In this document: positions 1 through 64,000 of the stretch, piece by piece
Position numbering within the stretch: position 1 is the first letter of the stretch
Layout of the letters: every line of letters starts with the position of its first letter
From: an uncultured virus (IMG/VR IMGVR_UViG_3300025390_000006)
Taxonomy: Duplodnaviria > Heunggongvirae > Uroviricota > Caudoviricetes
Virus record (IMG/VR): IMGVR_UViG_3300025390_000006
Length of the DNA stretch: 64,000 nucleotides
Direction: 5' to 3' (one strand)
The notes under the pieces: model-generated
What the model saw: only the letters and a program-made list of their open reading frames with translations
Told to the model about the DNA's origin: nothing
Databases searched by the model: none
Position numbers and translations under genes: made by a program

Positions 1-276
1 GGAGAATGGAAAGATGGAAAATGGTATAGCAAATTCCACCGTGATGCTTGGATCAAGGCTGTCAAACCATACGCCGATGAGATTGAACGGCTGCGGGGTT
101 CATATGAAGACTGCATCAATGCTGTTGATACTATAATCAATGACGGAATGACTGAGCCAGCAAAATTTGCCAAAATTCAACACAGTGGGTTTACCGCGTA
201 TAACTACATGATCGCAATGGCGGAAGACATAAAAGATGAAATTAAAAAACGGGCTGCACTGAAGGAGGGTGAGTGA
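1..276 (+). CDS. Cassette-array protein, 5' truncated (..KAVKPY-ADEIERLR-GSYEDC..AALKEGE)
   Basis: Frame +1 is open from base 1 to TGA at 274-276 and carries both array motifs. Confidence 0.8.
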   Translation, partial: GEWKDGKWYSKFHRDAWIKAVKPYADEIERLRGSYEDCINAVDTIINDGMTEPAKFAKIQHSGFTAYNYMIAMAEDIKDEIKKRAALKEGE

Positions 277-596
277 TGGATATTGTTGAACGGTTGCGGG
301 ATCGTAAAGAAACAATTATTGGGTGGGTTGTTAATTTTGATACATGTGAAGCCGCTGATGAAATTGAACGGTTGCGGGAAGCGTTAAATATTTTCATGGC
401 GGTAGACCCCGATAAGACCAGCAACTGGTTGTATAAGCGGGAAAAAGCAGAAGCACTTGTCAAGGAATCCTTGTCAACTGGTAAGCAATTCTTACAAGTT
501 TGGCCGTGGAAATGCCCTATCGGAAAAACAGATTGCAATGAAAATTGTGGAAGATATGGTTGGGCAATTAGCCCGTGCCGCACTGAAGGAGGGTGA
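276..596 (+). CDS. Cassette-array protein MDIVERLR-DRKET..EAADEIERLR.., Cys-rich C-terminus
   Basis: SD AAGGAGG 7 nt before ATG; TGATG overlap with the previous gene. Confidence 0.85.
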   Translation: MDIVERLRDRKETIIGWVVNFDTCEAADEIERLREALNIFMAVDPDKTSNWLYKREKAEALVKESLSTGKQFLQVWPWKCPIGKTDCNENCGRYGWAISPCRTEGG

Positions 597-599
597 GTG

Positions 600-674
600 A
601 TGTCAGACCATGCGATTGAATTTATATGCAATACGGTTTTCTGGATAGTTCTTGTATATTTATGGTTTCGTTGA
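600..674 (+). CDS. 24-aa hydrophobic micropeptide cassette (MSDHAIEFICNTVFWIVLVYLWFR)
   Basis: ATG and SD supplied by repeat A; its stop is the TGA of the next repeat A core. Confidence 0.65.
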   Translation: MSDHAIEFICNTVFWIVLVYLWFR

Positions 675-687
675 AGGAGGGTGAGTG

Positions 688-945
688 ATGGATATTGTAG
701 AACGGTTGCGGCAAGAAATTGCTGGGTACACAGACGGCCCAATTGAGGCGGCTGAAGCAACGATGCATGAAGCCGCCGATGAGATTGAACGGCTGCGCAT
801 TAATATGTATCAAGCAATGCATCATGCTGCTGAAATTTGGAAGGAAAATGGGAAAAAATTAGACGACCAACTTGGCGTTGTTGCTTTGATATTAGCCAAT
901 GGATTAGGCATTATCCCTGACGCCGCACTGAAGGAGGGTGAGTGA
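688..945 (+). CDS. Cassette-array protein (MDIVERLR..EAADEIERLR..AALKEGE)
   Basis: Both motifs present; repeat-encoded SD and start. Confidence 0.85.
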   Translation: MDIVERLRQEIAGYTDGPIEAAEATMHEAADEIERLRINMYQAMHHAAEIWKENGKKLDDQLGVVALILANGLGIIPDAALKEGE

Positions 946-1229
946 TGGACATTGTTGAACAATTACGCAAATGTGCAAATACTATTTACCATCAAGATGG
1001 TTACACGTTTCGCCTTGGATTGCAGAACGAAGCTGCCGATGAGATTGAACGGTTGCGGCAAGCATTACAATTAATTGCGGATCATCCCGTTGAACAATCT
1101 GGGCAATGGCAGGTTGGTGCAAAAGAAATGCAAAATATAGCTAATTCCGCGTTAAAAGATCCTGCCGCCTTGGGCTATGGGATCGTTAAAAAAGTATTGA
1201 AAGATCATGGTCTTTGGGAGGGTGAGTGA
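945..1229 (+). CDS. Cassette-array protein (MDIVEQLR-KCANTIY..EAADEIERLR..WEGE)
   Basis: Both motifs present; repeat-encoded SD and start. Confidence 0.85.
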   Translation: MDIVEQLRKCANTIYHQDGYTFRLGLQNEAADEIERLRQALQLIADHPVEQSGQWQVGAKEMQNIANSALKDPAALGYGIVKKVLKDHGLWEGE

Positions 1230-1471
1230 TGTGTAACAGAAAGGGCGAACCCATGACGGGATACCAAAGCAAGAAGCTATCGGCGGAAATCCGGTGGCTG
1301 GGGCCGTACCCGCCTAATACCCGCCATGCTGATCCTGAGACGATGGATCATATCATTGACCTGCGTAAGAAATTGGCAGAGGCGGAAAGGCAGCGGGACA
1401 ACGCATTGGACAGGGTCGTGTTCATGCAAAAGAAGGTGGCGGAAATGAAGGAGGCTCTGGGCTTAAAATGA
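1229..1471 (+). CDS. Hypothetical coiled-coil protein (alternative start 1253)
   Basis: Coupled to the last repeat A; helical C-terminus. Confidence 0.7.
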   Translation: MCNRKGEPMTGYQSKKLSAEIRWLGPYPPNTRHADPETMDHIIDLRKKLAEAERQRDNALDRVVFMQKKVAEMKEALGLK

Positions 1472-1563
1472 CCAGTCTGACTACTTTAGCCGCGTTGTTT
1501 TACGTGGCGCATACGTTCTGTTGTTTTGTTTTGCTGTGCGTTTTAATGTGGAGGAATGGATAA
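1468..1563 (+). CDS. 31-aa hydrophobic micropeptide (MTSLTTLAALFYVAHTFCCFVLLCVLMWRNG)
   Basis: ATGA overlap upstream and TAATG overlap downstream; fills the gap exactly. Confidence 0.6.
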   Translation: MTSLTTLAALFYVAHTFCCFVLLCVLMWRNG

Positions 1564-1763
1564 TGGCTTTTATGAACAAGAGAAGTAAAAGTGGAAGGAG
1601 GGGTGGTGGCAGTGGAACATCAAGGATTGAGATGCCAATGGTGCGTTTGGTTTCCGCTAAACAAGAACGGCGGATAGAAAAGATACGGGCGGCATTTCAG
1701 CCTGAAGCTAAACCGAAGGTAACATTACCTAAATTTTCATGGGACAAAAAAGATGACGAATAA
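1563..1763 (+). CDS. Small basic hypothetical protein
   Basis: SD GGAGG; coupled start. Confidence 0.65.
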   Translation: MAFMNKRSKSGRRGGGSGTSRIEMPMVRLVSAKQERRIEKIRAAFQPEAKPKVTLPKFSWDKKDDE

Positions 1764-1962
1764 CGAATTAGAGGCGGCATTACAGGAAGCAATCGCGTTG
1801 ATTGCAATAGCGGTTCATATGGCGAACGATCCTGAAGATCGGTTACAGTTTAAGGAAAAGTGGATCAATAAGGCTAACGAAGTAGTTCGGGGATATTTTG
1901 ATTATGTCAAACGTGAGGCAGATAGCGCAGAAACACGGCATCAGGATTGGATCGGAGACTAA
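1753..1962 (+). CDS. Hypothetical protein
   Basis: ORF in a tightly packed operon. Confidence 0.6.
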   Translation: MTNNELEAALQEAIALIAIAVHMANDPEDRLQFKEKWINKANEVVRGYFDYVKREADSAETRHQDWIGD

Positions 1963-2215
1963 GGCGGCGCAAAAGACAATTTGCCCAAAGTGCAGCAGTA
2001 AACGGGTTCACGCATACGATCATTGCCTATCGGTAAGGATTGACGCTACGGGTATAGGGTGGCGGTGCTTTCATTGCGGGTGGACAGGCGGGGAAATGAC
2101 GGATGCTTTCAGAACTTCATCAAAAATGGTTGGAAAAACGCGGGATCAACATCAACACCGCGATCCATATGGGGACTTACTCAGGAAGGCGCGGGCCGGA
2201 TGGGCAGGTCGTTAG
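1904..2215 (+). CDS. Stand-alone primase zinc-binding domain protein
   Basis: CPKC..CLSV..WRCFHCGWTG zinc ribbon directly upstream of the TOPRIM-helicase. Confidence 0.75.
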   Translation: MSNVRQIAQKHGIRIGSETKAAQKTICPKCSSKRVHAYDHCLSVRIDATGIGWRCFHCGWTGGEMTDAFRTSSKMVGKTRDQHQHRDPYGDLLRKARAGWAGR

Positions 2216-3593
2216 TCATCCTGAAGGGGATGTCTTGTGTTTTCCGTTCATCAAGGACGGGGAAATAGTCGGCCACAAATACAGGGGGCCGAAAAAGTCA
2301 TTTTGGCAACAAGCAAACGGAAGGAAACAGTTTTACAATGCGGACATTCTCACAGACCCTGCGCTACACGACGGAAGCGTTTCCCTTGTTATTACTGAGG
2401 GAGAGGTTGACGCACTGGCGGTGGCAACTGCCGGATACCCATATGTTGTCTCCGTCCCAGACGGTGCGCCGCCTCCCCGTGACGCGGATGGACGGCTCAT
2501 TGTCGTTCCACGGACAACAGATGATATCGTACCAGATGCCGATACAAAATTCGGATACATCACCGCCGACTGGGAAAGCCTTACGAAGATCCGTCGGATC
2601 ATCATAGCGGTTGATAACGACGATGCGGGGCGGCGGTTAGGGGATGAACTTGTCCGCCGCCTTGATCGGGTTCGGTGTTCGTTTGTAACGTTTCCCGAAA
2701 CCTGCAAAGATTTTAATGAGGTTTTGGTAAATCACGGTTCTGATACCGTGCGGGAAATTATAGGGGCGGCAAAACCTTATCCGGTTGATGGGGTTTACAA
2801 GCTATCGGACTTTCCGCCTGAGGAGCCGATTACAACCTACACAACGGGTTGGGGTTCATTGGATCAGTATATCCGCCCATATTTAGGGGCGTTTATGGTT
2901 GTGGGTGGGTTTCCGGGGCATGGTAAATCAACGTGGACGCTCCAGTTCGCCGCTAACATGGCAAGGTTGCACGGTTGGGGGGTTGCGGTTGCATCCTTTG
3001 AAATGAAGGTTGTCCCGTATGTCACTGACACCCTCATGTCCACGTTTCTGCAAGGTCCGATTAAGTTTGCGGCTCCGGTTAACCGTAAACGGGCGGTTGA
3101 GTTCGTTGAGGATCGGTTTACGTTTATCGCGCCGGAAAAAGGGGATAGTGACACGGATCATGACATTGATTGGTTGATTGACCGGATGCAGGTTGCGGTT
3201 ATCCGTGGCGGTTGCAAGATGGTTTTGATTGATCCGTTTAATGAGATTGAGCAGAATAAAAAGCGGGATGAAACCACAACCGAATATATCGGGCGGGCGA
3301 TTAGGAAGCTGAAGGCGTTCGCAATGCAATATAATGTGTTGGTCTGCGTTGTGGCTCATCCGACCAAGGGTTCCGCCCATTTGGATAGTGCCGATTTGGG
3401 GTTATACAATATCGCGGACAGCTCACACTTCGCAAATAAGGCGGATATCGGGCTTATTATCGGTCGGGTTGGTGATCCGAAGGTTGATGTCATAACGGGG
3501 ATTTACATTAAAAAAATCAGGTATCAACCAGACGCTGGCACGTTGGGTGAGGCTTTTTTAACCTTTGACAAAAGTACGCGGTTGTTTTCTTGA
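2103..3593 (+). CDS. Twinkle/T7 gp4-like primase-helicase (TOPRIM + SF4 helicase) lacking the zinc-binding domain
   Basis: ITEGEVDAL, DNDDAG, CKDFNEVL, Walker A GFPGHGKS, LIDPFN, VVAHPTK. Confidence 0.92.
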   Translation: MLSELHQKWLEKRGININTAIHMGTYSGRRGPDGQVVSHPEGDVLCFPFIKDGEIVGHKYRGPKKSFWQQANGRKQFYNADILTDPALHDGSVSLVITEGEVDALAVATAGYPYVVSVPDGAPPPRDADGRLIVVPRTTDDIVPDADTKFGYITADWESLTKIRRIIIAVDNDDAGRRLGDELVRRLDRVRCSFVTFPETCKDFNEVLVNHGSDTVREIIGAAKPYPVDGVYKLSDFPPEEPITTYTTGWGSLDQYIRPYLGAFMVVGGFPGHGKSTWTLQFAANMARLHGWGVAVASFEMKVVPYVTDTLMSTFLQGPIKFAAPVNRKRAVEFVEDRFTFIAPEKGDSDTDHDIDWLIDRMQVAVIRGGCKMVLIDPFNEIEQNKKRDETTTEYIGRAIRKLKAFAMQYNVLVCVVAHPTKGSAHLDSADLGLYNIADSSHFANKADIGLIIGRVGDPKVDVITGIYIKKIRYQPDAGTLGEAFLTFDKSTRLFS

Positions 3594-3652
3594 AACCGTT
3601 ATTGTATGGTTAAGACAAGGCTCCCGTTCGTCTCCGGCGGTTGTAGCTTGGG

Positions 3653-3694
3653 GCGGTTGGCTTTCATCCCCGTTGTGCCGACCGCCCTTTTTTA
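3653..3694 (+). terminator. Intrinsic terminator after primase-helicase
   Basis: GGGCGGTTGGC..GCCGACCGCCC stem followed by a T run. Confidence 0.7.
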
Positions 3695-3715
3695 TGTTTA
3701 ACCTATTGCAAAATA

Positions 3716-3747
3716 AAGAAAAACCGGATAGGTTAGTATCCGGTTCT
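3716..3747 (-). terminator. Terminator of the leftward early unit
   Basis: AACCGGATA/TATCCGGTT stem followed by a T-rich tail on the minus strand. Confidence 0.6.
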
Positions 3748-3779
3748 TTGACATTGTGAAGTATGTTTCGGGGTGCGGG

Positions 3780-4010
3780 TTATAGGTTACCGCTCCGGTT
3801 CATAGGGTTGTAACCCGTTGGGTTAGGTTCGGGGTTCGGTTTAGGTTCAAGTTTAATTATTATTTCGGTTACGCGATCAATGATCGGGTTGTCGTAAGTG
3901 TCAAAGGTTGACAGGCGGTCAAATAACGCATGAACCGCCGTTTCATCTGGCGCGTCAATTTCGTAGGTTTTAGTGCCTGAAAATTCAACGGTTACGGTAA
4001 ATTGTGGCAT
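3780..4010 (-). CDS. Hypothetical protein (MPQFTVTVEF..)
   Basis: SD GGAGGGG before ATG at 4010. Confidence 0.65.
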   Translation of the reverse strand: MPQFTVTVEFSGTKTYEIDAPDETAVHALFDRLSTFDTYDNPIIDRVTEIIIKLEPKPNPEPNPTGYNPMNRSGNL

Positions 4011-4023
4011 GGTTTCCCCTCCC

Positions 4024-4767
4024 CTATGCGTTATGGGTTTCATAATTGCGGATAACAAAACCGGATTGATCCCGTTTCGCTTTATGACCTTTGGGGGATA
4101 ATCCAACAATAACACCCTTTGGATCAAGAAACCGTAAATCATGCTTATCCCCGTCAATAACGGGATAACCTAAATACGTTTCCGGTAAACCGTGATCGAA
4201 AATGGCGGCAACATTGACCCCCCGTGCCAATAGCGCCCGCGCAATCGGTTCGTTTGTTTCTGATAGGCTGAAGGTTAAATGGTAATTAGGCGGCAATTTC
4301 CGGTTAAATCGGTTAGGGTTCTTTGTATAATCCAGAAATGGGATAGCAGGGAAAGCTTCCATAATATTGCGATAGGTTAAACCGTTAACCGTAACCGCAA
4401 CCCCTTCGTAAGCGATATCCGTTGAACCGTTAGGGCGGATTGCGGGTTTTAAACCGTCTTTTTTAGCGTTATCGATTAGTTTTTGAACGTGATAGGCGAA
4501 TTCTTGCATATATTCGGAACGGTATTTCATAAAGAAAACCATTTTGCGCTTGCGGCTATCCCGTACGGTTTCCGACATTGCAGCTTGTCCGGAATGTTCA
4601 CCTAAGCATAACGCAATGCATCCGGCGCTTGCGTGTGAACAAAGGTTTCCGACACCGCCCGATTTATGAGGCGCACCGTAATTTATCCCGTTAAGATAAC
4701 CGTATGAATTCGCCTTAACCGCTTTCGGACTATCCACCGAAAGAAACCGTTTGAATTGAATTTTCAT
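4024..4767 (-). CDS. GP88-like phage protein (Cx6Cx3C, radical-SAM-like)
   Basis: NLCSHASAGCIALCL, RPNGSTDI, DYTK, NYHLTFS, DGDKHDLRFLD motifs. Confidence 0.75.
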   Translation of the reverse strand: MKIQFKRFLSVDSPKAVKANSYGYLNGINYGAPHKSGGVGNLCSHASAGCIALCLGEHSGQAAMSETVRDSRKRKMVFFMKYRSEYMQEFAYHVQKLIDNAKKDGLKPAIRPNGSTDIAYEGVAVTVNGLTYRNIMEAFPAIPFLDYTKNPNRFNRKLPPNYHLTFSLSETNEPIARALLARGVNVAAIFDHGLPETYLGYPVIDGDKHDLRFLDPKGVIVGLSPKGHKAKRDQSGFVIRNYETHNA

Positions 4768-6343: not shown

Positions 6344-6907
6344 ATCTGATAGCAGGGGAATTGAGGCGCTGATAGCAATAGGCTGAAATATAAGGCAGAA
6401 AGCCCTTTTCTTCTTACAGGGGTAGGGGTCTGCCGTGATGATACAAAATGCTAATCACTGGCACGCTTCCGTGGTGTGCAATTTGTATAAGTAGTGAGCC
6501 GTCAAGGATCATTTATGCTAATCAGTGAAGTAAGCAATAATGCTAATCAGTGAAGCGCGTCATGGTTCAGCTTGGCGCGTGTCTGGCAAGATAAAGCGCG
6601 GCATGGTGCGGCGCGTGCGATGGATGCCAGCCGCCCGCAATGGTCAGCCTCTATGCTATAGGCGGCACTGATAGGGTAAGAGACGGAACGGGCTTGGTGC
6701 GCGCTCTGTGAGGCACCGCGACCGTATAGGATAGGGCACAAAGAAAGGCCTTTGCAAAATCAGACAAACGACCCCCGACCCCCCCTTTTCATAGGGATAG
6801 GGGGTGGAAAAGGGACCCCCCATACCCCCAGAGAATCTTAATTTCTCACTGATTCTCACTTCCGCAAATCACTCAACCCCCCACCCCTTTTTGGGACCCC
6901 CCAGTAC

Positions 6908-6943
6908 AAAAACAAAAAAACCGCCAGAGTTTCCCCTGACGGC
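6908..6943 (-). terminator. Intrinsic terminator (GAAA-capped stem + U7) ending the candidate ncRNA
   Basis: Minus strand GCCGTCAGGG-GAAA-CTCTGGCGGT-TTTTTTG; the G-U pairs fix the strand. Confidence 0.75.
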
Positions 6944-7143
6944 TTTCTTTTGAGATCCGCCGACCGCGACGCATACACGGTCCATTGCTCTCTATTGGCG
7001 GCTATGCTTTACGGGTGGTAGACTTGACGCTGTTCTGCTTCGTTCTACCTAAGACGTGGAAACAGCAAAAACACGCCGCCCCGTAAACTGTATACGTATA
7101 TTAACGTCTGACCTTACATCCAGATACAGTACGTTAATTAAGC
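6914..7143 (-). ncRNA. Candidate structured non-coding RNA (~230 nt)
   Basis: TTGACA promoter upstream, terminator downstream, no credible ORF, multiple stems and pseudoknot-type pairings. Confidence 0.55.
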
Positions 7144-7149
7144 TTGAGT

Positions 7150-7180
7150 ACTATATATGGCGGCAATAAAAAATTGTCAA
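7150..7180 (-). promoter_or_regulatory. Sigma70-type promoter
   Basis: TTGACA-N17-TATATAGT on the minus strand. Confidence 0.7.
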
Positions 7181-7417
7181 CTAACCGCAGACCATACCGC
7201 AGTAGCCCAGCGTATCGCTGTAATGGCCTTCATCTTCCCCGTCTTCTTTCCAATCGTACTTTGCCCTCCACGCCATGCACTTTGATGCAATGCATGCGCG
7301 GCCAGCTTCCAGCCCATCATAGATAAGAACGCGGTTATTCATACCGCCACCTACTGACATTGGGCATACTTTCTTGGCGGCCTCTAATTCCGTAATGTAG
7401 TGCGGAGCATTAGACAT
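7181..7417 (-). CDS. Small Cys-rich protein (C..CxxxxCMAWR..GYCGMV), paralog of 58403-58627
   Basis: Shared PHYxT..EA, CMAWR and GYCGMV motifs. Confidence 0.75.
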   Translation of the reverse strand: MSNAPHYITELEAAKKVCPMSVGGGMNNRVLIYDGLEAGRACIASKCMAWRAKYDWKEDGEDEGHYSDTLGYCGMVCG

Positions 7418-7493
7418 TGCTTTTCCCCCAATTAGTGGTAATAAAAGTTACATAGTTTCAAGGCATTATACTTTAAACAATGGGGAAAATCAA

Positions 7494-8432
7494 ATGCCGA
7501 CACCTAAACTGTCTGTGGAAGTTTTAATTGAAACCCTTAAATTATTAGAAGCGCATAGCCGCCGACCAACCATAGCTGCTAAGGCGGGAAACATATCTCC
7601 CAATACATTTAACCATCGCATGAAGATGGCATTTGAGCGATTTCCTAATGGACTGGATGATGTAAAATTAGAACGCCCAACATCCACTTGGACTTACCCC
7701 AGACTTAAAACCATTGAAGCCCCCGACACAAAATGGATCATAGGATCTGACCTTCACGTCTGGGATGGTGACCCAACCCTCATTTACAAAGCATTCGTTA
7801 AAGTTGCTAAAACTTTAAAGGTTGATGGGATAATCCTTAACGGGGACATTATTGACGGGGCGCGAATCAGCCGCCACCCATCCGTTCGGGGTTCCAAAGC
7901 CCCTAAAATTGAAAAAGAAATAGACACCGCCAAGAAATGGCTCCGCCTCCTACCCAATGCCAAATACAAACTGTGGACCCTTGGCAACCATGATATCCGC
8001 ATAGACAACTACATCGCCGCTAACGCTTCAGAACTGGATGGGTATATCCTATCCCTGCATGAGCATTTTACAGATTGGGATTTTTCCTTTGCGTTTGATA
8101 TCAACGGAACGGAAATTCGCCACAGGTTTAGGGGCGGCATCCATGCGGGCTGGAACAATGCTTTACATGGTGGGATAAGTATCGTTACGGGTCACACCCA
8201 TCAGCTTCAGGTCACCGCCATGCGGGATCGGAAAGGTTCGCGGTGGGGTGTGGAGACTGGGATGATGGCGGACCCCACTGGCCCGCAGTTTCAGTATTCA
8301 GAAGGAACCCCGTCCCGGTCGCAGCAAGGGTTCGCGGTTATTTCGTTCGATGAAGACGGAACAATGTTTCCGCCGGAACTGTGCGAAATGATTAATGGCC
8401 GCCCCGTGTTTAGGGGCGACCACGTATTTTGA
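7494..8432 (+). CDS. Calcineurin-like metallophosphoesterase with N-terminal HTH-like region
   Basis: SDLH, GDIID, GNHD, GHTH motifs. Confidence 0.85.
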   Translation: MPTPKLSVEVLIETLKLLEAHSRRPTIAAKAGNISPNTFNHRMKMAFERFPNGLDDVKLERPTSTWTYPRLKTIEAPDTKWIIGSDLHVWDGDPTLIYKAFVKVAKTLKVDGIILNGDIIDGARISRHPSVRGSKAPKIEKEIDTAKKWLRLLPNAKYKLWTLGNHDIRIDNYIAANASELDGYILSLHEHFTDWDFSFAFDINGTEIRHRFRGGIHAGWNNALHGGISIVTGHTHQLQVTAMRDRKGSRWGVETGMMADPTGPQFQYSEGTPSRSQQGFAVISFDEDGTMFPPELCEMINGRPVFRGDHVF

Positions 8433-59524: not shown

Positions 59525-59724
59525 TGGATATTGTAGAACAATTACGCAAAAGCGCAAATACTGTTTACTCCCAAGATGGCTATACGTTTCGCCTTGGATT
59601 GCAGAACGAAGCCGCCAATGAGATTGAACAATTGCGGGATGCTTTGCGATGGGCTTTGCCTTATGTAAAAAACGATGAAAGAGTTAAGGCTATTGTTCTC
59701 GCTGCACTGAAGGAGGGTGAGTGA
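59524..59724 (+). CDS. Cassette-array protein (MDIVEQLR-KSANTVY..EAANEIEQLR-DALRW..)
   Basis: Array motifs. Confidence 0.85.
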   Translation: MDIVEQLRKSANTVYSQDGYTFRLGLQNEAANEIEQLRDALRWALPYVKNDERVKAIVLAALKEGE

Positions 59725-59918
59725 TGGATATTGTAGAACGGTTAGAAGAGCATCTGCGTTTTAATGGCAAAGATCAGTTATCCCGTGATGCAAAAAGCGC
59801 GATTGAACGGTTGCGGGAAGCGTTACGTTATATTTTAACGCACTGCGAATCTGATAGCCCACCGAATGCCAAAGCACTTATACTTTTTGTCAACAACGCA
59901 CTGAAGGAGGGTGAGTGA
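59724..59918 (+). CDS. Cassette-array protein (MDIVERL..AIERLR..ALKEGE)
   Basis: Array motifs. Confidence 0.85.
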   Translation: MDIVERLEEHLRFNGKDQLSRDAKSAIERLREALRYILTHCESDSPPNAKALILFVNNALKEGE

Positions 59919-60238
59919 TGGATATTGTTGAACGGTTGCGGGATCGTAAAGAAACAATTATTGGGTGGGTTGTTAATTTTGATACATGTGAAGCCGCTGA
60001 TGAAATTGAACGGTTGCGGGAAGCGTTAAATATTTTCATGGCGGTAGACCCCGATAAGACCAGCAACTGGTTGTATAAGCGGGAAAAAGCAGAAGCACTT
60101 GTCAAGGAATCCTTGTCAACTGGTAAGCAATTCTTACAAGTTTGGCCGTGGAAATGCCCTATCGGAAAAACAGATTGCAATGAAAATTGTGGAAGATATG
60201 GTTGGGCAATTAGCCCGTGCCGCACTGAAGGAGGGTGA
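59918..60238 (+). CDS. Copy of 276-596
   Basis: Identical translation. Confidence 0.85.
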   Translation: MDIVERLRDRKETIIGWVVNFDTCEAADEIERLREALNIFMAVDPDKTSNWLYKREKAEALVKESLSTGKQFLQVWPWKCPIGKTDCNENCGRYGWAISPCRTEGG

Positions 60239-60329
60239 GTGATGTCAGACCATGCGATTGAATTTATATGCAATACGGTTTTCTGGATAGTTCTTGTATA
60301 TTTATGGTTTCGTTGAAGGAGGGTGAGTG

Positions 60330-60587
60330 ATGGATATTGTAGAACGGTTGCGGCAAGAAATTGCTGGGTACACAGACGGCCCAATTGAGGCGGCTGAAGC
60401 AACGATGCATGAAGCCGCCGATGAGATTGAACGGCTGCGCATTAATATGTATCAAGCAATGCATCATGCTGCTGAAATTTGGAAGGAAAATGGGAAAAAA
60501 TTAGACGACCAACTTGGCGTTGTTGCTTTGATATTAGCCAATGGATTAGGCATTATCCCTGACGCCGCACTGAAGGAGGGTGAGTGA
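60330..60587 (+). CDS. Copy of 688-945
   Basis: Identical translation. Confidence 0.85.
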   Translation: MDIVERLRQEIAGYTDGPIEAAEATMHEAADEIERLRINMYQAMHHAAEIWKENGKKLDDQLGVVALILANGLGIIPDAALKEGE

Positions 60588-60871
60588 TGGACATTGTTGA
60601 ACAATTACGCAAATGTGCAAATACTATTTACCATCAAGATGGTTACACGTTTCGCCTTGGATTGCAGAACGAAGCTGCCGATGAGATTGAACGGTTGCGG
60701 CAAGCATTACAATTAATTGCGGATCATCCCGTTGAACAATCTGGGCAATGGCAGGTTGGTGCAAAAGAAATGCAAAATATAGCTAATTCCGCGTTAAAAG
60801 ATCCTGCCGCCTTGGGCTATGGGATCGTTAAAAAAGTATTGAAAGATCATGGTCTTTGGGAGGGTGAGTGA
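60587..60871 (+). CDS. Copy of 945-1229
   Basis: Identical translation. Confidence 0.85.
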   Translation: MDIVEQLRKCANTIYHQDGYTFRLGLQNEAADEIERLRQALQLIADHPVEQSGQWQVGAKEMQNIANSALKDPAALGYGIVKKVLKDHGLWEGE

Positions 60872-61545
60872 TGTGTAACAGAAAGGGCGAACCCATGACG
60901 GGATACCAAAGCAAGAAGCTATCGGCGGAAATCCGGTGGCTGGGGCCGTACCCGCCTAATACCCGCCATGCTGATCCTGAGACGATGGATCATATCATTG
61001 ACCTGCGTAAGAAATTGGCAGAGGCGGAAAGGCAGCGGGACAACGCATTGGACAGGGTCGTGTTCATGCAAAAGAAGGTGGCGGAAATGAAGGAGGCTCT
61101 GGGCTTAAAATGACCAGTCTGACTACTTTAGCCGCGTTGTTTTACGTGGCGCATACGTTCTGTTGTTTTGTTTTGCTGTGCGTTTTAATGTGGAGGAATG
61201 GATAATGGCTTTTATGAACAAGAGAAGTAAAAGTGGAAGGAGGGGTGGTGGCAGTGGAACATCAAGGATTGAGATGCCAATGGTGCGTTTGGTTTCCGCT
61301 AAACAAGAACGGCGGATAGAAAAGATACGGGCGGCATTTCAGCCTGAAGCTAAACCGAAGGTAACATTACCTAAATTTTCATGGGACAAAAAAGATGACG
61401 AATAACGAATTAGAGGCGGCATTACAGGAAGCAATCGCGTTGATTGCAATAGCGGTTCATATGGCGAACGATCCTGAAGATCGGTTACAGTTTAAGGAAA
61501 AGTGGATCAATAAGGCTAACGAAGTAGTTCGGGGATATTTTGATT

Positions 61546-61857
61546 ATGTCAAACGTGAGGCAGATAGCGCAGAAACACGGCATCAGGATTGGATCGGAGA
61601 CTAAGGCGGCGCAAAAGACAATTTGCCCAAAGTGCAGCAGTAAACGGGTTCACGCATACGATCATTGCCTATCGGTAAGGATTGACGCTACGGGTATAGG
61701 GTGGCGGTGCTTTCATTGCGGGTGGACAGGCGGGGAAATGACGGATGCTTTCAGAACTTCATCAAAAATGGTTGGAAAAACGCGGGATCAACATCAACAC
61801 CGCGATCCATATGGGGACTTACTCAGGAAGGCGCGGGCCGGATGGGCAGGTCGTTAG
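61546..61857 (+). CDS. Copy of the primase zinc-binding domain ORF
   Basis: Identical translation. Confidence 0.75.
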   Translation: MSNVRQIAQKHGIRIGSETKAAQKTICPKCSSKRVHAYDHCLSVRIDATGIGWRCFHCGWTGGEMTDAFRTSSKMVGKTRDQHQHRDPYGDLLRKARAGWAGR

Positions 61858-63235
61858 TCATCCTGAAGGGGATGTCTTGTGTTTTCCGTTCATCAAGGAC
61901 GGGGAAATAGTCGGCCACAAATACAGGGGGCCGAAAAAGTCATTTTGGCAACAAGCAAACGGAAGGAAACAGTTTTACAATGCGGACATTCTCACAGACC
62001 CTGCGCTACACGACGGAAGCGTTTCCCTTGTTATTACTGAGGGAGAGGTTGACGCACTGGCGGTGGCAACTGCCGGATACCCATATGTTGTCTCCGTCCC
62101 AGACGGTGCGCCGCCTCCCCGTGACGCGGATGGACGGCTCATTGTCGTTCCACGGACAACAGATGATATCGTACCAGATGCCGATACAAAATTCGGATAC
62201 ATCACCGCCGACTGGGAAAGCCTTACGAAGATCCGTCGGATCATCATAGCGGTTGATAACGACGATGCGGGGCGGCGGTTAGGGGATGAACTTGTCCGCC
62301 GCCTTGATCGGGTTCGGTGTTCGTTTGTAACGTTTCCCGAAACCTGCAAAGATTTTAATGAGGTTTTGGTAAATCACGGTTCTGATACCGTGCGGGAAAT
62401 TATAGGGGCGGCAAAACCTTATCCGGTTGATGGGGTTTACAAGCTATCGGACTTTCCGCCTGAGGAGCCGATTACAACCTACACAACGGGTTGGGGTTCA
62501 TTGGATCAGTATATCCGCCCATATTTAGGGGCGTTTATGGTTGTGGGTGGGTTTCCGGGGCATGGTAAATCAACGTGGACGCTCCAGTTCGCCGCTAACA
62601 TGGCAAGGTTGCACGGTTGGGGGGTTGCGGTTGCATCCTTTGAAATGAAGGTTGTCCCGTATGTCACTGACACCCTCATGTCCACGTTTCTGCAAGGTCC
62701 GATTAAGTTTGCGGCTCCGGTTAACCGTAAACGGGCGGTTGAGTTCGTTGAGGATCGGTTTACGTTTATCGCGCCGGAAAAAGGGGATAGTGACACGGAT
62801 CATGACATTGATTGGTTGATTGACCGGATGCAGGTTGCGGTTATCCGTGGCGGTTGCAAGATGGTTTTGATTGATCCGTTTAATGAGATTGAGCAGAATA
62901 AAAAGCGGGATGAAACCACAACCGAATATATCGGGCGGGCGATTAGGAAGCTGAAGGCGTTCGCAATGCAATATAATGTGTTGGTCTGCGTTGTGGCTCA
63001 TCCGACCAAGGGTTCCGCCCATTTGGATAGTGCCGATTTGGGGTTATACAATATCGCGGACAGCTCACACTTCGCAAATAAGGCGGATATCGGGCTTATT
63101 ATCGGTCGGGTTGGTGATCCGAAGGTTGATGTCATAACGGGGATTTACATTAAAAAAATCAGGTATCAACCAGACGCTGGCACGTTGGGTGAGGCTTTTT
63201 TAACCTTTGACAAAAGTACGCGGTTGTTTTCTTGA
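61745..63235 (+). CDS. Copy of the primase-helicase
   Basis: Identical translation. Confidence 0.92.
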   Translation: MLSELHQKWLEKRGININTAIHMGTYSGRRGPDGQVVSHPEGDVLCFPFIKDGEIVGHKYRGPKKSFWQQANGRKQFYNADILTDPALHDGSVSLVITEGEVDALAVATAGYPYVVSVPDGAPPPRDADGRLIVVPRTTDDIVPDADTKFGYITADWESLTKIRRIIIAVDNDDAGRRLGDELVRRLDRVRCSFVTFPETCKDFNEVLVNHGSDTVREIIGAAKPYPVDGVYKLSDFPPEEPITTYTTGWGSLDQYIRPYLGAFMVVGGFPGHGKSTWTLQFAANMARLHGWGVAVASFEMKVVPYVTDTLMSTFLQGPIKFAAPVNRKRAVEFVEDRFTFIAPEKGDSDTDHDIDWLIDRMQVAVIRGGCKMVLIDPFNEIEQNKKRDETTTEYIGRAIRKLKAFAMQYNVLVCVVAHPTKGSAHLDSADLGLYNIADSSHFANKADIGLIIGRVGDPKVDVITGIYIKKIRYQPDAGTLGEAFLTFDKSTRLFS

Positions 63236-63665
63236 AACCGTTATTGTATGGTTAAGACAAGGCTCCCGTTCGTCTCCGGCGGTTGTAGCTTGGGGCGGTT
63301 GGCTTTCATCCCCGTTGTGCCGACCGCCCTTTTTTATGTTTAACCTATTGCAAAATAAAGAAAAACCGGATAGGTTAGTATCCGGTTCTTTGACATTGTG
63401 AAGTATGTTTCGGGGTGCGGGTTATAGGTTACCGCTCCGGTTCATAGGGTTGTAACCCGTTGGGTTAGGTTCGGGGTTCGGTTTAGGTTCAAGTTTAATT
63501 ATTATTTCGGTTACGCGATCAATGATCGGGTTGTCGTAAGTGTCAAAGGTTGACAGGCGGTCAAATAACGCATGAACCGCCGTTTCATCTGGCGCGTCAA
63601 TTTCGTAGGTTTTAGTGCCTGAAAATTCAACGGTTACGGTAAATTGTGGCATGGTTTCCCCTCCC

Positions 63666-64000
63666 CTATGCGTTATGGGTTTCATAATTGCGGATAACAA
63701 AACCGGATTGATCCCGTTTCGCTTTATGACCTTTGGGGGATAATCCAACAATAACACCCTTTGGATCAAGAAACCGTAAATCATGCTTATCCCCGTCAAT
63801 AACGGGATAACCTAAATACGTTTCCGGTAAACCGTGATCGAAAATGGCGGCAACATTGACCCCCCGTGCCAATAGCGCCCGCGCAATCGGTTCGTTTGTT
63901 TCTGATAGGCTGAAGGTTAAATGGTAATTAGGCGGCAATTTCCGGTTAAATCGGTTAGGGTTCTTTGTATAATCCAGAAATGGGATAGCAGGGAAAGCTT
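63666..64000 (-). CDS. Partial copy of the GP88-like gene (5' end outside the window)
   Basis: Identical to 4024-4358. Confidence 0.75.
   Translation of the reverse strand, partial: AFPAIPFLDYTKNPNRFNRKLPPNYHLTFSLSETNEPIARALLARGVNVAAIFDHGLPETYLGYPVIDGDKHDLRFLDPKGVIVGLSPKGHKAKRDQSGFVIRNYETHNA

What the first reader, a model, noticed from the sequence alone, without database searches (positions are those of the whole stretch)
6914..7143. Stand-alone ~230-nt ncRNA with a pseudoknot and a kissing-loop three-way junction
Seen (minus strand): a TTGACA promoter and a GAAA-capped terminator bound a region with no usable ORF. Domain 1: stem UUAACGU/ACGUUAA whose loop ACUGUAU pairs with downstream AUACAGU (pseudoknot). 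Domain 2: UUUACGGG/CCCGUAAA closes hairpins CGUG/CACG and GGUAGA/UCUACC, whose loops are complementary (UGCUGUUU with GAACAGCG). Domain 3: CCGCC/GGCGG enclosing GACCG/CGGUC. Inference: a functional structured RNA of a class I do not recognise. Loop-loop pairing could be intermolecular as in phi29 pRNA, or the RNA could be a decoy/antitoxin mimic or a ribozyme.
Basis: partly seen in the sequence, partly recalled or inferred. Interest (0 to 1): 0.75.

Follow-up and report, generated by a model that had tools for sequence, protein, structure and literature searches.

The report
Phage copy of CyVA-1 RNA
The flagged stretch is a real, tightly folded non-coding RNA gene of a freshwater phage, but its core is a copy of the already catalogued CyVA-1 RNA, whose job is still unknown.

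Summary
Window 6914-7145 (minus strand) is a non-coding unit running from a promoter-like site to a terminator. Its central 78 nt (7009-7086) match Rfam CyVA-1 (RF02965) at 45.0 bits, above the 41.4 cut-off.

**Supported**
- The three-way junction and the loop-loop pairing hold up on 46 CyVA-1 sequences from phages, cyanobacteria, Acidobacteriota and Alphaproteobacteria. Cells paired: 90.2% against 60.4% in shuffles. The kissing helix is 98.8% paired, with three pairs changed on both sides.
- Domain 3 and the terminator are real.

**Not supported**
- The Domain 1 pseudoknot.
- Any conserved small ORF.

**New here**
- Relatives carry an 85-aa gene, and once also a tRNA-Met, exactly between CyVA-1 and Domain 3. 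The window holds the cargo-free form of this cassette.
- Bacterial copies sit behind ECF-type or sigma-54-type promoter motifs, whereas the phage copy has a sigma-70-like one.

Function is not shown. My best guess is a trans-acting mimic of a stress-induced host RNA. The scan has already noted CyVA-1 relatives in six other phage windows. Verdict: new member of a known kind, moderate interest.

The parts
7175..7180 (-). -35-like hexamer TTGACA. It overlaps the stop codon (7183-7181) of the upstream 78-aa ORF.
   Evidence: Sequence. Invariant in all relatives that carry a promoter here. Not listed by the scan, because of the -10 rule.
7152..7157 (-). -10-like hexamer TATATA, 17 nt after the -35 box. 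The predicted start is near A7145 (AAGCUU...).
   Evidence: Sequence. B-type relatives have TATACA at the same 17-nt spacing, and AAGCTT follows 6-7 nt later in all of them. Inferred; no transcript data.
7100..7138 (-). Domain 1: a 5' hairpin with the conserved apical loop GGAUGUA (7121-7115).
   Evidence: Folds as a hairpin in the window, L125 and L137 versions. 76.8% of cells paired, 4 pairs changed on both sides. Thermodynamically weak (z -0.9 to -1.95).
7091..7100 (-). 10-nt perfect palindrome in the single-stranded linker between Domain 1 and CyVA-1.
   Evidence: Each variant type has a different palindrome at this spot. Per-linker shuffle P ranges from 0.005 to 0.16; self-duplex energy -6.4 to -13.3 kcal/mol. 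Meaning unknown.
7008..7087 (-). CyVA-1 core: P1 (7087-7080 with 7015-7008), P2 (7077-7072 with 7058-7053), P3 (7049-7044 with 7022-7017).
   Evidence: Rfam RF02965 at 7009-7086, 45.0 bits against cut-off 41.4. Own model R1 scores 82.3 bits. All 20 stem pairs change on both sides across the 46 sequences.
7060..7066 (-). Loop 1 strand of the kissing helix (GCUGUUU).
   Evidence: Pairs with 7035-7029. 98.8% of cells paired in 46 sequences; 3 of 7 pairs change on both sides.
7029..7035 (-). Loop 2 strand of the kissing helix (GAACAGC).
   Evidence: Within the phage family, U:A becomes C:G in 5 of 15 sequences.
6957..7001 (-). Domain 3: outer stem CCGCC/GGCGG, a 14-nt 5' bulge, and an inner 7-bp hairpin (6982-6962).
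   Evidence: Fold. Outer stem 98.7% paired, inner hairpin 100% paired, 3 pairs changed on both sides.
6914..6949 (-). Intrinsic terminator with a GAAA loop and a U7 run.
   Evidence: Terminator scan. 100% paired in 15 relatives. Some relatives have a weaker UUUCUCC tail followed by a gene.

Best explanation
SHOWN. The interval is a non-coding transcription unit of an uncultivated freshwater phage of about 59.6 kb. Its central 78 nt are a member of the CyVA-1 RNA family. The fold is a three-way junction whose two hairpin loops pair with each other. A lineage-specific 5' hairpin, a 3' hairpin domain and an intrinsic terminator flank it.

In close relatives the same CyVA-1 and Domain 3/terminator 'bookends' enclose optional cargo: an 85-aa gene, and once also a tRNA-Met. 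The window holds the commonest, cargo-free form.

INFERRED mechanism (about 0.4). The RNA itself is the product. It acts in trans as a folded particle, and the invariant unpaired nucleotides around the kissing helix are recognised by a conserved cellular partner (a protein, the ribosome or RNA polymerase).

Bacterial CyVA-1 genes sit behind ECF-type (alphaproteobacteria) or sigma-54-type (Acidobacteriota) promoter motifs. The phage copy sits behind a sigma-70-like one. The phage would therefore supply, from its own promoter, an RNA that the cell makes only under stress or nutrient signals. That would mimic or pre-empt the host response.
For: Identity
- Rfam hit above cut-off.
- 78 nt long, matching the published mean of 78 nt (PMC5737381, one passage seen).
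- 90.2% of cells paired against 60.4% in shuffles; covariation 0.724 against 0.189; 0 of 500 shuffles as high.

Stand-alone unit
- Conserved -35 box, 17-nt spacing and -10 box.
- Strong terminator.
- No ORF kept in frame.
- 15 distinct cargo-free variants keep all helices.
- The RNA survives an internal deletion of the upstream 78-aa gene in L137-L139.

Host versions under alternative sigma factors
- GGAAC-N15-17-CGTT lies within 75 nt upstream in 4 of 9 alphaproteobacterial loci (7 of 9 with a relaxed -10), with 0 matches elsewhere in 13.9 kb.
- A sigma-54-type motif is present in 6 of 9 Acidobacteriota-type loci, against 1 match elsewhere in 13.4 kb.
- The GGAAC/CGTT consensus comes from PMC5869019 and PMC6599016 (passages seen).

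Family expression
- A metatranscriptome study reports CyVA-1 in halite cyanobacteria (bioRxiv 10.1101/761684, one passage seen).

Patchy distribution, as expected of a mobile RNA
- 1 of 151 alphaproteobacterial genomes scored over the cut-off, and that one was the centre genome itself.
Against: - There is no transcript evidence for this phage, and no partner is known. The trans-acting step is pure inference.
- In several relatives and bacteria, CyVA-1 lies directly in front of a gene. Examples are gene Y in L151, L156 and L171, a C5 DNA methylase in two Alsobacter genomes, and a CHASE3/PAS sensor in an acidobacterium. That fits a cis role at least as well.
- When 'gene X' is present (L151, L168) there is no dedicated promoter.
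- One natural variant (L131) has lost the canonical loops yet keeps the rest of the unit.
- The host is unknown, so whether it has a CyVA-1 of its own is unknown.
- The promoter motifs were first noticed by eye and then counted, so that test is post hoc.
Confidence: 0.4

Rival explanations
1. A cis-acting 5' module of an expression cassette. CyVA-1 would be the first folded element of a transcript and would act on that same transcript. It could be a 5' stabiliser or processing signal, or a put-like modifier of the transcribing polymerase that lets it pass the terminator. On this reading the window copy is an 'empty' cassette, or it feeds transcription into the adjacent non-coding region.
For: - Cargo sits exactly between CyVA-1 and Domain 3: gene Y in L151, L156 and L171, plus a tRNA-Met in L156.
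- Some relatives have a weak terminator tail followed by a ribosome-binding site and a gene.
- Bacterial copies lie directly upstream of a DNA methylase or a sensor gene, with no terminator visible between.
- An earlier scan note describes a CyVA-1 relative as the leader of a late phage message (unchecked).
Against: - The cargo-free form is the commonest (15 of 18 distinct variants that have Domain 3) and is fully conserved.
- The window terminator is strong and is followed by no credible gene.
- Several bacterial copies have no gene downstream on the same strand.
- Near-invariant loop sequences across phyla are more than a plain stabiliser would need.
Confidence: 0.3
2. A ligand-sensing, riboswitch-like aptamer. 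It has the same 'tuning-fork' architecture as purine riboswitches. Domain 3 and the terminator would serve as its expression platform.
For: - Three-way junction with L2-L3 pairing and highly conserved unpaired nucleotides.
- A terminator lies downstream, and in some relatives a gene follows it.
Against: - Downstream genes are unrelated to each other, or absent.
- Usually one copy per genome: 1 match in 4 of 5 genomes and 2 in the fifth.
- The only alternative pairing that links the aptamer to Domain 3 (GGCGGC with GCCGCC, in the fold) is broken in the L137 type (by eye).
- In cargo-bearing relatives Domain 3 lies about 300-480 nt away from the aptamer.
- No riboswitch family matched.
Confidence: 0.07
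3. Transcription-related element of the adjacent non-coding region. The promoter fires towards a 530-nt stretch of G-runs and short repeats (6380-6910). That stretch may be an origin or a packaging site, and the RNA or its read-through could prime or activate it.
For: - Seven G-runs and 3-4 copies of a 10-nt repeat lie just downstream.
- Relatives carry iteron-like repeats with an AT-rich stretch at the same place.
- The small terminase gene lies about 2 kb away.
Against: - A strong terminator separates the RNA from that region.
- CyVA-1 occurs in many unrelated contexts without such a region.
- Nothing shows that the region is an origin.
Confidence: 0.08
4. A self-cleaving ribozyme, or an RNA that oligomerises (phi29-pRNA-like, or through the palindromic linker) as part of a larger assembly.
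For: - A compact junction with invariant unpaired nucleotides.
- A palindrome in the linker of every variant type, with self-duplex energies of -6.4 to -13.3 kcal/mol.
Against: - No ribozyme or pRNA family matched, even at E up to 10.
- The loop-loop pairing is satisfied within one molecule in all 46 sequences.
- The palindrome statistics are post hoc. In L151 and L168 the palindrome lies in coding sequence.
Confidence: 0.05
5. A small protein-coding gene explains the conservation.
For: - An AUG at 6985 preceded by a purine-rich stretch opens a 38-codon frame.
- An antisense 33-codon frame is open in most variants.
Against: - The sense frame is cut by a stop in L183 and is absent in L169 and L186.
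- A 1-nt length difference shifts the frame between the window and the L137 type.
- In L151 the AUG itself is replaced.
- Substitutions follow base-pairing, not codons.
- The intrinsic terminator lies inside the frame, before any stop codon.
Confidence: 0.02

Closest known systems
CyVA-1 RNA motif (Rfam RF02965, type 'Gene; sRNA'; Weinberg et al. 2017, PMC5737381)
   Same: - Scores above the family's curated cut-off.
- Same length of 78 nt.
- Same P1/P2/P3 junction.
- Same conserved loop sequences.
   Different: - Sits in a freshwater phage that is not obviously a cyanophage; the nearest cultured large terminase is 45% identical, in Roseobacter phages.
- Embedded in a transcript of about 230 nt with a 5' hairpin and a 3' hairpin domain.
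- The loop 2 position that reads G in cyanobacteria reads C here, as in the alphaproteobacterial copies.
- I could not read the family's supplement, so I cannot say whether the loop-loop pairing is already annotated there.
CyVA-1 relatives already noted by this scan in six other phage windows
   Same: Kissing-loop small RNA, typically one per phage genome, often with its own promoter. One lies in a tRNA cluster and one next to a tmRNA gene, which parallels the tRNA-Met cargo in L156.
   Different: - Different phage lineage and habitat.
- Here the core is canonical, not rearranged.
- Here the cargo-insertion site and the Domain 3 bookend are documented.
- Those notes are unchecked AI notes.
Purine riboswitch aptamer (fold only; architecture recalled, not tested)
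   Same: A three-way junction of about 70-80 nt in which the loops of P2 and P3 pair.
   Different: - No Rfam match.
- Loops are much larger and carry the conserved sequence, while the junctions are short.
- No consistent downstream gene.
phi29 pRNA
   Same: A phage-encoded RNA with a three-way junction and complementary loops.
   Different: - No match to the pRNA family.
- The complementary loops can pair within one molecule.
- The phage is not phi29-like.
- Relatives of the RNA occur in bacterial chromosomes.
GsrN of Caulobacter, an sRNA driven by the EcfG-type sigma factor sigma-T (PMC5869019; one methods passage seen, the rest recalled)
   Same: An alphaproteobacterial small RNA behind a GGAAC / CGTT promoter. 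It is a precedent for what the bacterial CyVA-1 copies may be.
   Different: - No sequence or structure relation was tested or seen.
- GsrN acts by base-pairing (recalled).
- It concerns the host copies, not the phage copy.

Membership tests
CyVA-1 (Rfam RF02965) | Covariance-model score at or above the curated gathering score (41.4 bits) | tested here: met
   45.0 bits, E 5.6e-7 over the whole window, model positions 1-77 of 77. Relatives score 42.7-54.8 bits in 9 of 10 loci scanned; L240 did not reach the cut-off.
CyVA-1 (Rfam RF02965) | Three-way junction: P1 enclosing two hairpins | tested here: met
   All 20 stem pairs change on both sides across the 46 sequences. Helices are 85.4-89.6% paired. 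Sliding the 3' partners by 1-3 columns drops pairing to 42-53%.
CyVA-1 (Rfam RF02965) | Conserved loop sequences (U-run...GUU in loop 1; GAAG.AGAAC..CGUCA in loop 2) | tested here: met
   Alignment to the family consensus. Caveat: most of my comparison set was collected with a pattern that fixes these letters, so their invariance in A4 is partly by construction.
CyVA-1 (Rfam RF02965) | Length of about 78 nt | tested here: met
   7009-7086 is 78 nt. The paper gives a mean of 78 nt.
CyVA-1 (Rfam RF02965) | Occurrence in cyanobacteria and their viruses (recalled from the name, not from a call) | tested here: inconclusive
   The host is unknown. Pattern and model hits also occur in Acidobacteriota, Alphaproteobacteria and Gemmataceae, so the range is wider than the name suggests.
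phi29-type pRNA | Match to the pRNA family, and loops that can pair only between molecules | tested here: not met
   No such match, even at E up to 10. The loop-loop helix is compatible with one molecule in 46 of 46 sequences.
Small self-cleaving ribozymes (hammerhead, twister and others) | Match to a catalogued ribozyme family; cleavage activity | tested here: not met
   No match. Cleavage itself cannot be tested with these tools.
Riboswitch | A consistent class of regulated downstream genes, and a ligand-dependent alternative fold | tested here: not met
   Downstream genes are unrelated or absent. No conserved alternative pairing. Ligand binding is not testable here.

The most novel reading that the evidence does not exclude
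CyVA-1 is a portable RNA module that bacteria switch on through stress or nutrient sigma factors: EcfG-type in alphaproteobacteria, sigma-54 in Acidobacteriota. Many unrelated phages carry it under their own constitutive promoters to occupy or hijack its conserved cellular partner. In this lineage it has also become the 5' bookend of a small cassette that picks up cargo (a small gene, a tRNA). It may pair with a second copy of itself through a palindromic linker.
Probability: 0.2. Interest if true: 0.7.

Novelty: new member of a known kind. Interest (0 to 1): 0.4.

Why it matters
CyVA-1 has been an orphan since 2017: a catalogued fold with no known function. This locus does not solve that, but it adds concrete handles.

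- The loop-loop helix is well supported and can be mutated and then restored by compensatory changes.
- There is a natural series of phage variants with and without cargo genes between fixed RNA bookends.
- There is a clear contrast in promoters. Bacterial copies carry ECF-type or sigma-54-type motifs, while the phage copy carries a sigma-70-like one.

If the host RNA belongs to a stress regulon and phages copy it, that would be a new case of phage mimicry of host regulatory RNA. It could be tested in cultivable carriers such as Alsobacter or cyanobacteria.

Tried and rejected
- blastn of 6700-7500 against deposited phages found no match.
- The window's own assembly is not held. The nearest record, G001, is 100% identical over 801 nt and adds nothing.
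- The supplement of PMC5737381 could not be read. What the authors say about CyVA-1's pseudoknot, hosts and neighbours is therefore unseen.
- The loop 2 pattern alone is too loose. Only 4 of the 120 viral loci returned also had the loop 1 motif upstream.
- 15 of the 37 distinct P1-pattern hits were chance matches in unrelated sequence.
- Sequencing runs: no RNA holder is listed. The 24 listed holders are freshwater DNA runs.
- I looked in the phage for a target complementary to the Domain 1 loop. There were 5 matches with up to 1 mismatch against 3.2 expected, and the only perfect one is the RNA gene itself.
- Small-ORF readings are rejected.
- The minimum-energy fold of the whole RNA pairs GGCGGC with GCCGCC instead of forming P1 and P2. 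That pairing is not kept in the L137 type.
- Model R1 found nothing in 151 Burkholderiales genomes. The call had no positive control, so it shows nothing.
- Neighbouring proteins gave no informative family: the 78-aa ORF, gene X, gene Y and the 82-aa downstream ORF of L125. The only hits were PHROGs of unknown function.
- The resemblance of the Domain 1 loop to a CsrA-type site is recalled only. GGA motifs did not look enriched on a rough count by eye (about 4 seen, about 3.6 expected), so I dropped the idea.

Full report
**What is there.** On the minus strand the window reads TTGACA (7180-7175), a 17-nt spacer, TATATA (7157-7152), then AAGCUU from 7145. About 230 nt further on lies a hairpin with a GAAA loop and a U7 run. 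The terminator scan lists it at 6949-6914. The same scan does not list the promoter, because its rule requires T at the last position of the -10 hexamer. The 230-nt RNA folds much better than shuffles: -82.2 kcal/mol, z = -4.37, and 0 of 200 shuffles fold as well. ARAGORN finds no tRNA or tmRNA in the window.

**What the core is.** A scan of the whole window against Rfam gives one match at gathering level: CyVA-1 (RF02965) at 7009-7086 on the minus strand. It scores 45.0 bits against a cut-off of 41.4 and covers the full model. A permissive rescan of 6600-7500 lists four further matches, and all of them lie far below their cut-offs.

CyVA-1 is one of the 224 candidate RNAs of Weinberg et al. 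2017. The one passage I could see says only that these RNAs average 78 nt (PMC5737381). The supplement could not be read. A metatranscriptome preprint reports CyVA-1 in halite cyanobacteria (10.1101/761684, one passage). A full-text search for 'CyVA-1' found 3 papers, of which 2 were listed. The passages I read in those two assign no function.

**Setting.** The window is phage DNA. It encodes small and large terminase, portal, a head protein, an ejection protein, Erf- and RecE-like recombination proteins, an O-like replication initiator and a primase/helicase. Positions 1-4358 repeat at 59643-64000 with 95.7% identity. The nearest cultured large terminases are 45% identical, in Roseobacter phages. 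The DNA is held by freshwater metagenome runs. The host is unknown.

The RNA gene lies just after a 78-aa cysteine-rich ORF of no known family (7181-7417). It points into about 530 nt of non-coding DNA that holds G-runs and short repeats.

**Relatives of the whole unit.** Three searches collected relatives: one with the 78-aa protein (19 loci) and two with a P1 pattern (14 viral and 32 metagenome loci). They gave 37 distinct stretches. Of these, 22 belong to this RNA family and 15 are chance matches. Fifteen distinct full-length, cargo-free sequences were aligned as A5.

Within these 15 sequences:
- The kissing helix changes U:A to C:G in 5 sequences.
- P3 changes two pairs on both sides.
- P2 changes one pair on both sides.

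When three cargo-bearing relatives and L168 are added, Domain 3 looks like this:
- The inner hairpin is 100% paired, with three pairs changed on both sides.
- The outer stem is 98.7% paired.
- The terminator is 100% paired.

**Domain 1.** A hairpin capped by GGAUGUA forms in three different stem versions. It is weak, however: 76.8% of cells pair, and folding z-scores run from -0.9 to -1.95.

**The wider family and the kissing loop.** I scanned for a pattern that combines the two conserved loops but leaves the putative pairing positions free. It found 48 loci in bacterial genomes and 18 in viral contigs. I built a covariance model from 35 curated sequences. At E up to 1e-9 it recovered 46 sequences. 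They come from this phage family, other viral contigs, cyanobacteria, Acidobacteriota and Thermoanaerobaculia, Alphaproteobacteria (five of them Alsobacter) and a Gemmataceae genome.

On that alignment:
- 90.2% of cells pair, against 60.4% in shuffles.
- The covariation score is 0.724 against 0.189, reached by 0 of 500 shuffles.
- Sliding the 3' partners by 1-3 columns drops pairing to 42-53%.
- The loop-loop helix is 98.8% paired. Its three variable pairs read UA 25 / CG 11 / UG 9 / GC 1; UA 41 / CG 5; and CG 37 / UG 3 / UA 2 / other 4.

The fixed letters of the search pattern cannot explain this last result, because the covarying positions were left free in the pattern. Rfam's own model also scores the Alsobacter and acidobacterial copies above its cut-off. 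The window's core is most like other viral copies (67-73% identity) and then the Alsobacter copies (60-64%).

**A cassette with optional cargo.** In L171 and L151 an 85-aa gene ('gene Y', no known family) lies exactly between the 3' strand of P1 and Domain 3. Its stop codon sits in the CAUAGCC that directly follows P1 in the window. L156 additionally has about 100 nt of unassigned sequence and a tRNA-Met(CAT) between gene Y and Domain 3.

In L151 and L168 a 93-95-aa 'gene X' replaces the promoter and Domain 1. The last 60 nt or so of gene X resemble Domain 1. All four combinations occur: X+Y+ in L151, X-Y+ in L171 and L156, X+Y- in L168, and X-Y- in the window and most others.

The constant parts are therefore CyVA-1 and Domain 3 with the terminator. 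In L137-L139 the 78-aa gene is internally deleted and the RNA is intact. Some relatives have a weaker terminator tail followed by a ribosome-binding site and a gene.

**Bacterial copies.** There is usually one copy per genome: 4 of the 5 genomes searched have one match and the fifth has two. The family is rare in Alphaproteobacteria: 1 of 151 genomes scored over the cut-off, and that was the centre genome itself. Neighbours vary. In two Alsobacter genomes the RNA lies directly upstream of a C5 DNA methylase. In one acidobacterium it lies upstream of a CHASE3/PAS sensor. Elsewhere no gene follows on the same strand.

Upstream promoter motifs differ by group:

| Group | Motif within 75 nt upstream | Loci with motif | Matches elsewhere in the same loci |
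|---|---|---|---|
| Alphaproteobacteria | GGAAC-N15-17-CGTT (strict) | 4 of 9 | 0 in 13.9 kb |
| Alphaproteobacteria | same, relaxed -10 | 7 of 9 | 0 in 13.9 kb |
| Acidobacteriota-type | -24/-12 sigma-54-type | 6 of 9 | 1 in 13.4 kb |
| Acidobacteriota-type (Acidiferrales, L213) | GGAAC-N15-17-CGTT (strict) | 1 of 9 | 0 in 13.4 kb |
| Cyanobacteria | either motif | 0 of 9 | 0 in 13.1 kb |

In the strict alphaproteobacterial matches, the motif ends 9-11 nt before P1. GGAAC and CGTT, 15-17 nt apart, is the published EcfG/sigma-T consensus (PMC5869019, methods passage; PMC6599016, passages). The sigma-54 consensus is recalled. I first saw these motifs by eye, so the counts are a post hoc test.

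**How it most likely works.** What is shown is the fold, the family and the unit. The rest is inference.

The cargo-free, fully conserved form with a strong terminator argues that the RNA itself is the product. The near-invariant unpaired nucleotides around the kissing helix, kept across phyla, argue for recognition by a conserved partner. The promoter contrast suggests that the phage makes, on its own schedule, an RNA that cells make on a stress or nutrient signal. I put this at about 0.4.

The main rival, at 0.3, is a cis-acting 5' module for stability, processing or terminator read-through. The cargo-bearing relatives and the bacterial copies in front of genes support it. The remaining rivals are minor:
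- a riboswitch-like sensor;
- a role in the adjacent G-rich region;
- a ribozyme or oligomer;
- a small ORF.

**Unexplained.**
- Every variant type has a different perfect palindrome in the linker before P1. Per-linker shuffle P runs from 0.005 to 0.16, and self-duplex energies from -6.4 to -13.3 kcal/mol. In L151 and L168 the palindrome lies in coding sequence.
- In B-type Domain 1, the six nucleotides just 3' of the conserved loop differ in almost every variant.
- One variant, L131, has replaced both CyVA-1 loops.

**Verdict.** Its core belongs to a known, function-less family that this scan has already met in six other phage windows (those notes are unchecked). It is a new member of a known kind. 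The cassette structure and the promoter contrast are the useful additions.

Noticed in passing
window 6380-6910: About 530 nt of non-coding DNA just downstream of the RNA terminator. On the minus strand it holds seven G-runs of 4-7 nt (GGGGGGTCCC-type boxes) and 3-4 copies of a 10-nt repeat (6450, 6517, 6542, 6864). Relatives carry other modules here, including iteron-like repeats with an AT-rich stretch. Many metagenome contigs end inside it. It may be an origin or packaging region, or simply a hypervariable mosaic that breaks assemblies.
   Followed up: partly
window 1-4358 and 59643-64000: The two ends of the window are 95.7% identical without gaps (4170 of 4358). The repeat unit is about 59.6 kb, but the two copies are not the same sequence.
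   Followed up: partly
L225, L203, L233, L216, L213 (ECF-type); L196, L191, L192, L214, L199, L212 (sigma-54-type); 75 nt upstream of CyVA-1 in each: Bacterial CyVA-1 genes are preceded by alternative-sigma promoter motifs. Alphaproteobacteria and one Acidiferrales MAG have GGAAC-N15-17-CGTT. Acidobacteriota and Thermoanaerobaculia have a -24/-12 type motif. Both are strongly enriched over the rest of the same loci.
   Followed up: partly
L257 and L258 (Alsobacter genomes), about 100 nt downstream of CyVA-1: In two Alsobacter genomes CyVA-1 lies directly upstream of a C5 cytosine DNA methylase gene on the same strand, with no visible terminator between them.
   Followed up: partly
L156 985-1160: About 100 nt of unassigned sequence and a tRNA-Met(CAT) gene lie between gene Y and Domain 3 of the RNA cassette.
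   Followed up: partly
L188, L193, L194, L195, L200, L201, L210, L217, L218 (cyanobacterial loci): A second, much weaker match to the CyVA-1 model (20-32 bits) lies about 50-160 nt downstream of the first, on the same strand. This suggests a tandem or degenerate second copy.
   Followed up: no
L033 352-433: A viral contig in which the hairpin with the loop 2 sequence comes before the hairpin with the loop 1 sequence. The loops are still complementary, so this is a permuted arrangement.
   Followed up: no
L243, L245, L253 (viral contigs), flanks of CyVA-1: Another group of viral CyVA-1 genes shares its own 5' hairpin followed by UAGAAAUC. L243 and L253 also share a 3' motif (GUCGCRAUGCCAGAC). 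Lineage-specific flanking domains therefore seem to be common.
   Followed up: no
L137-L139, 2501-2600: The 78-aa cysteine-rich ORF upstream of the RNA is reduced by an internal in-frame deletion to about 19 codons, while the promoter and the RNA are untouched.
   Followed up: no
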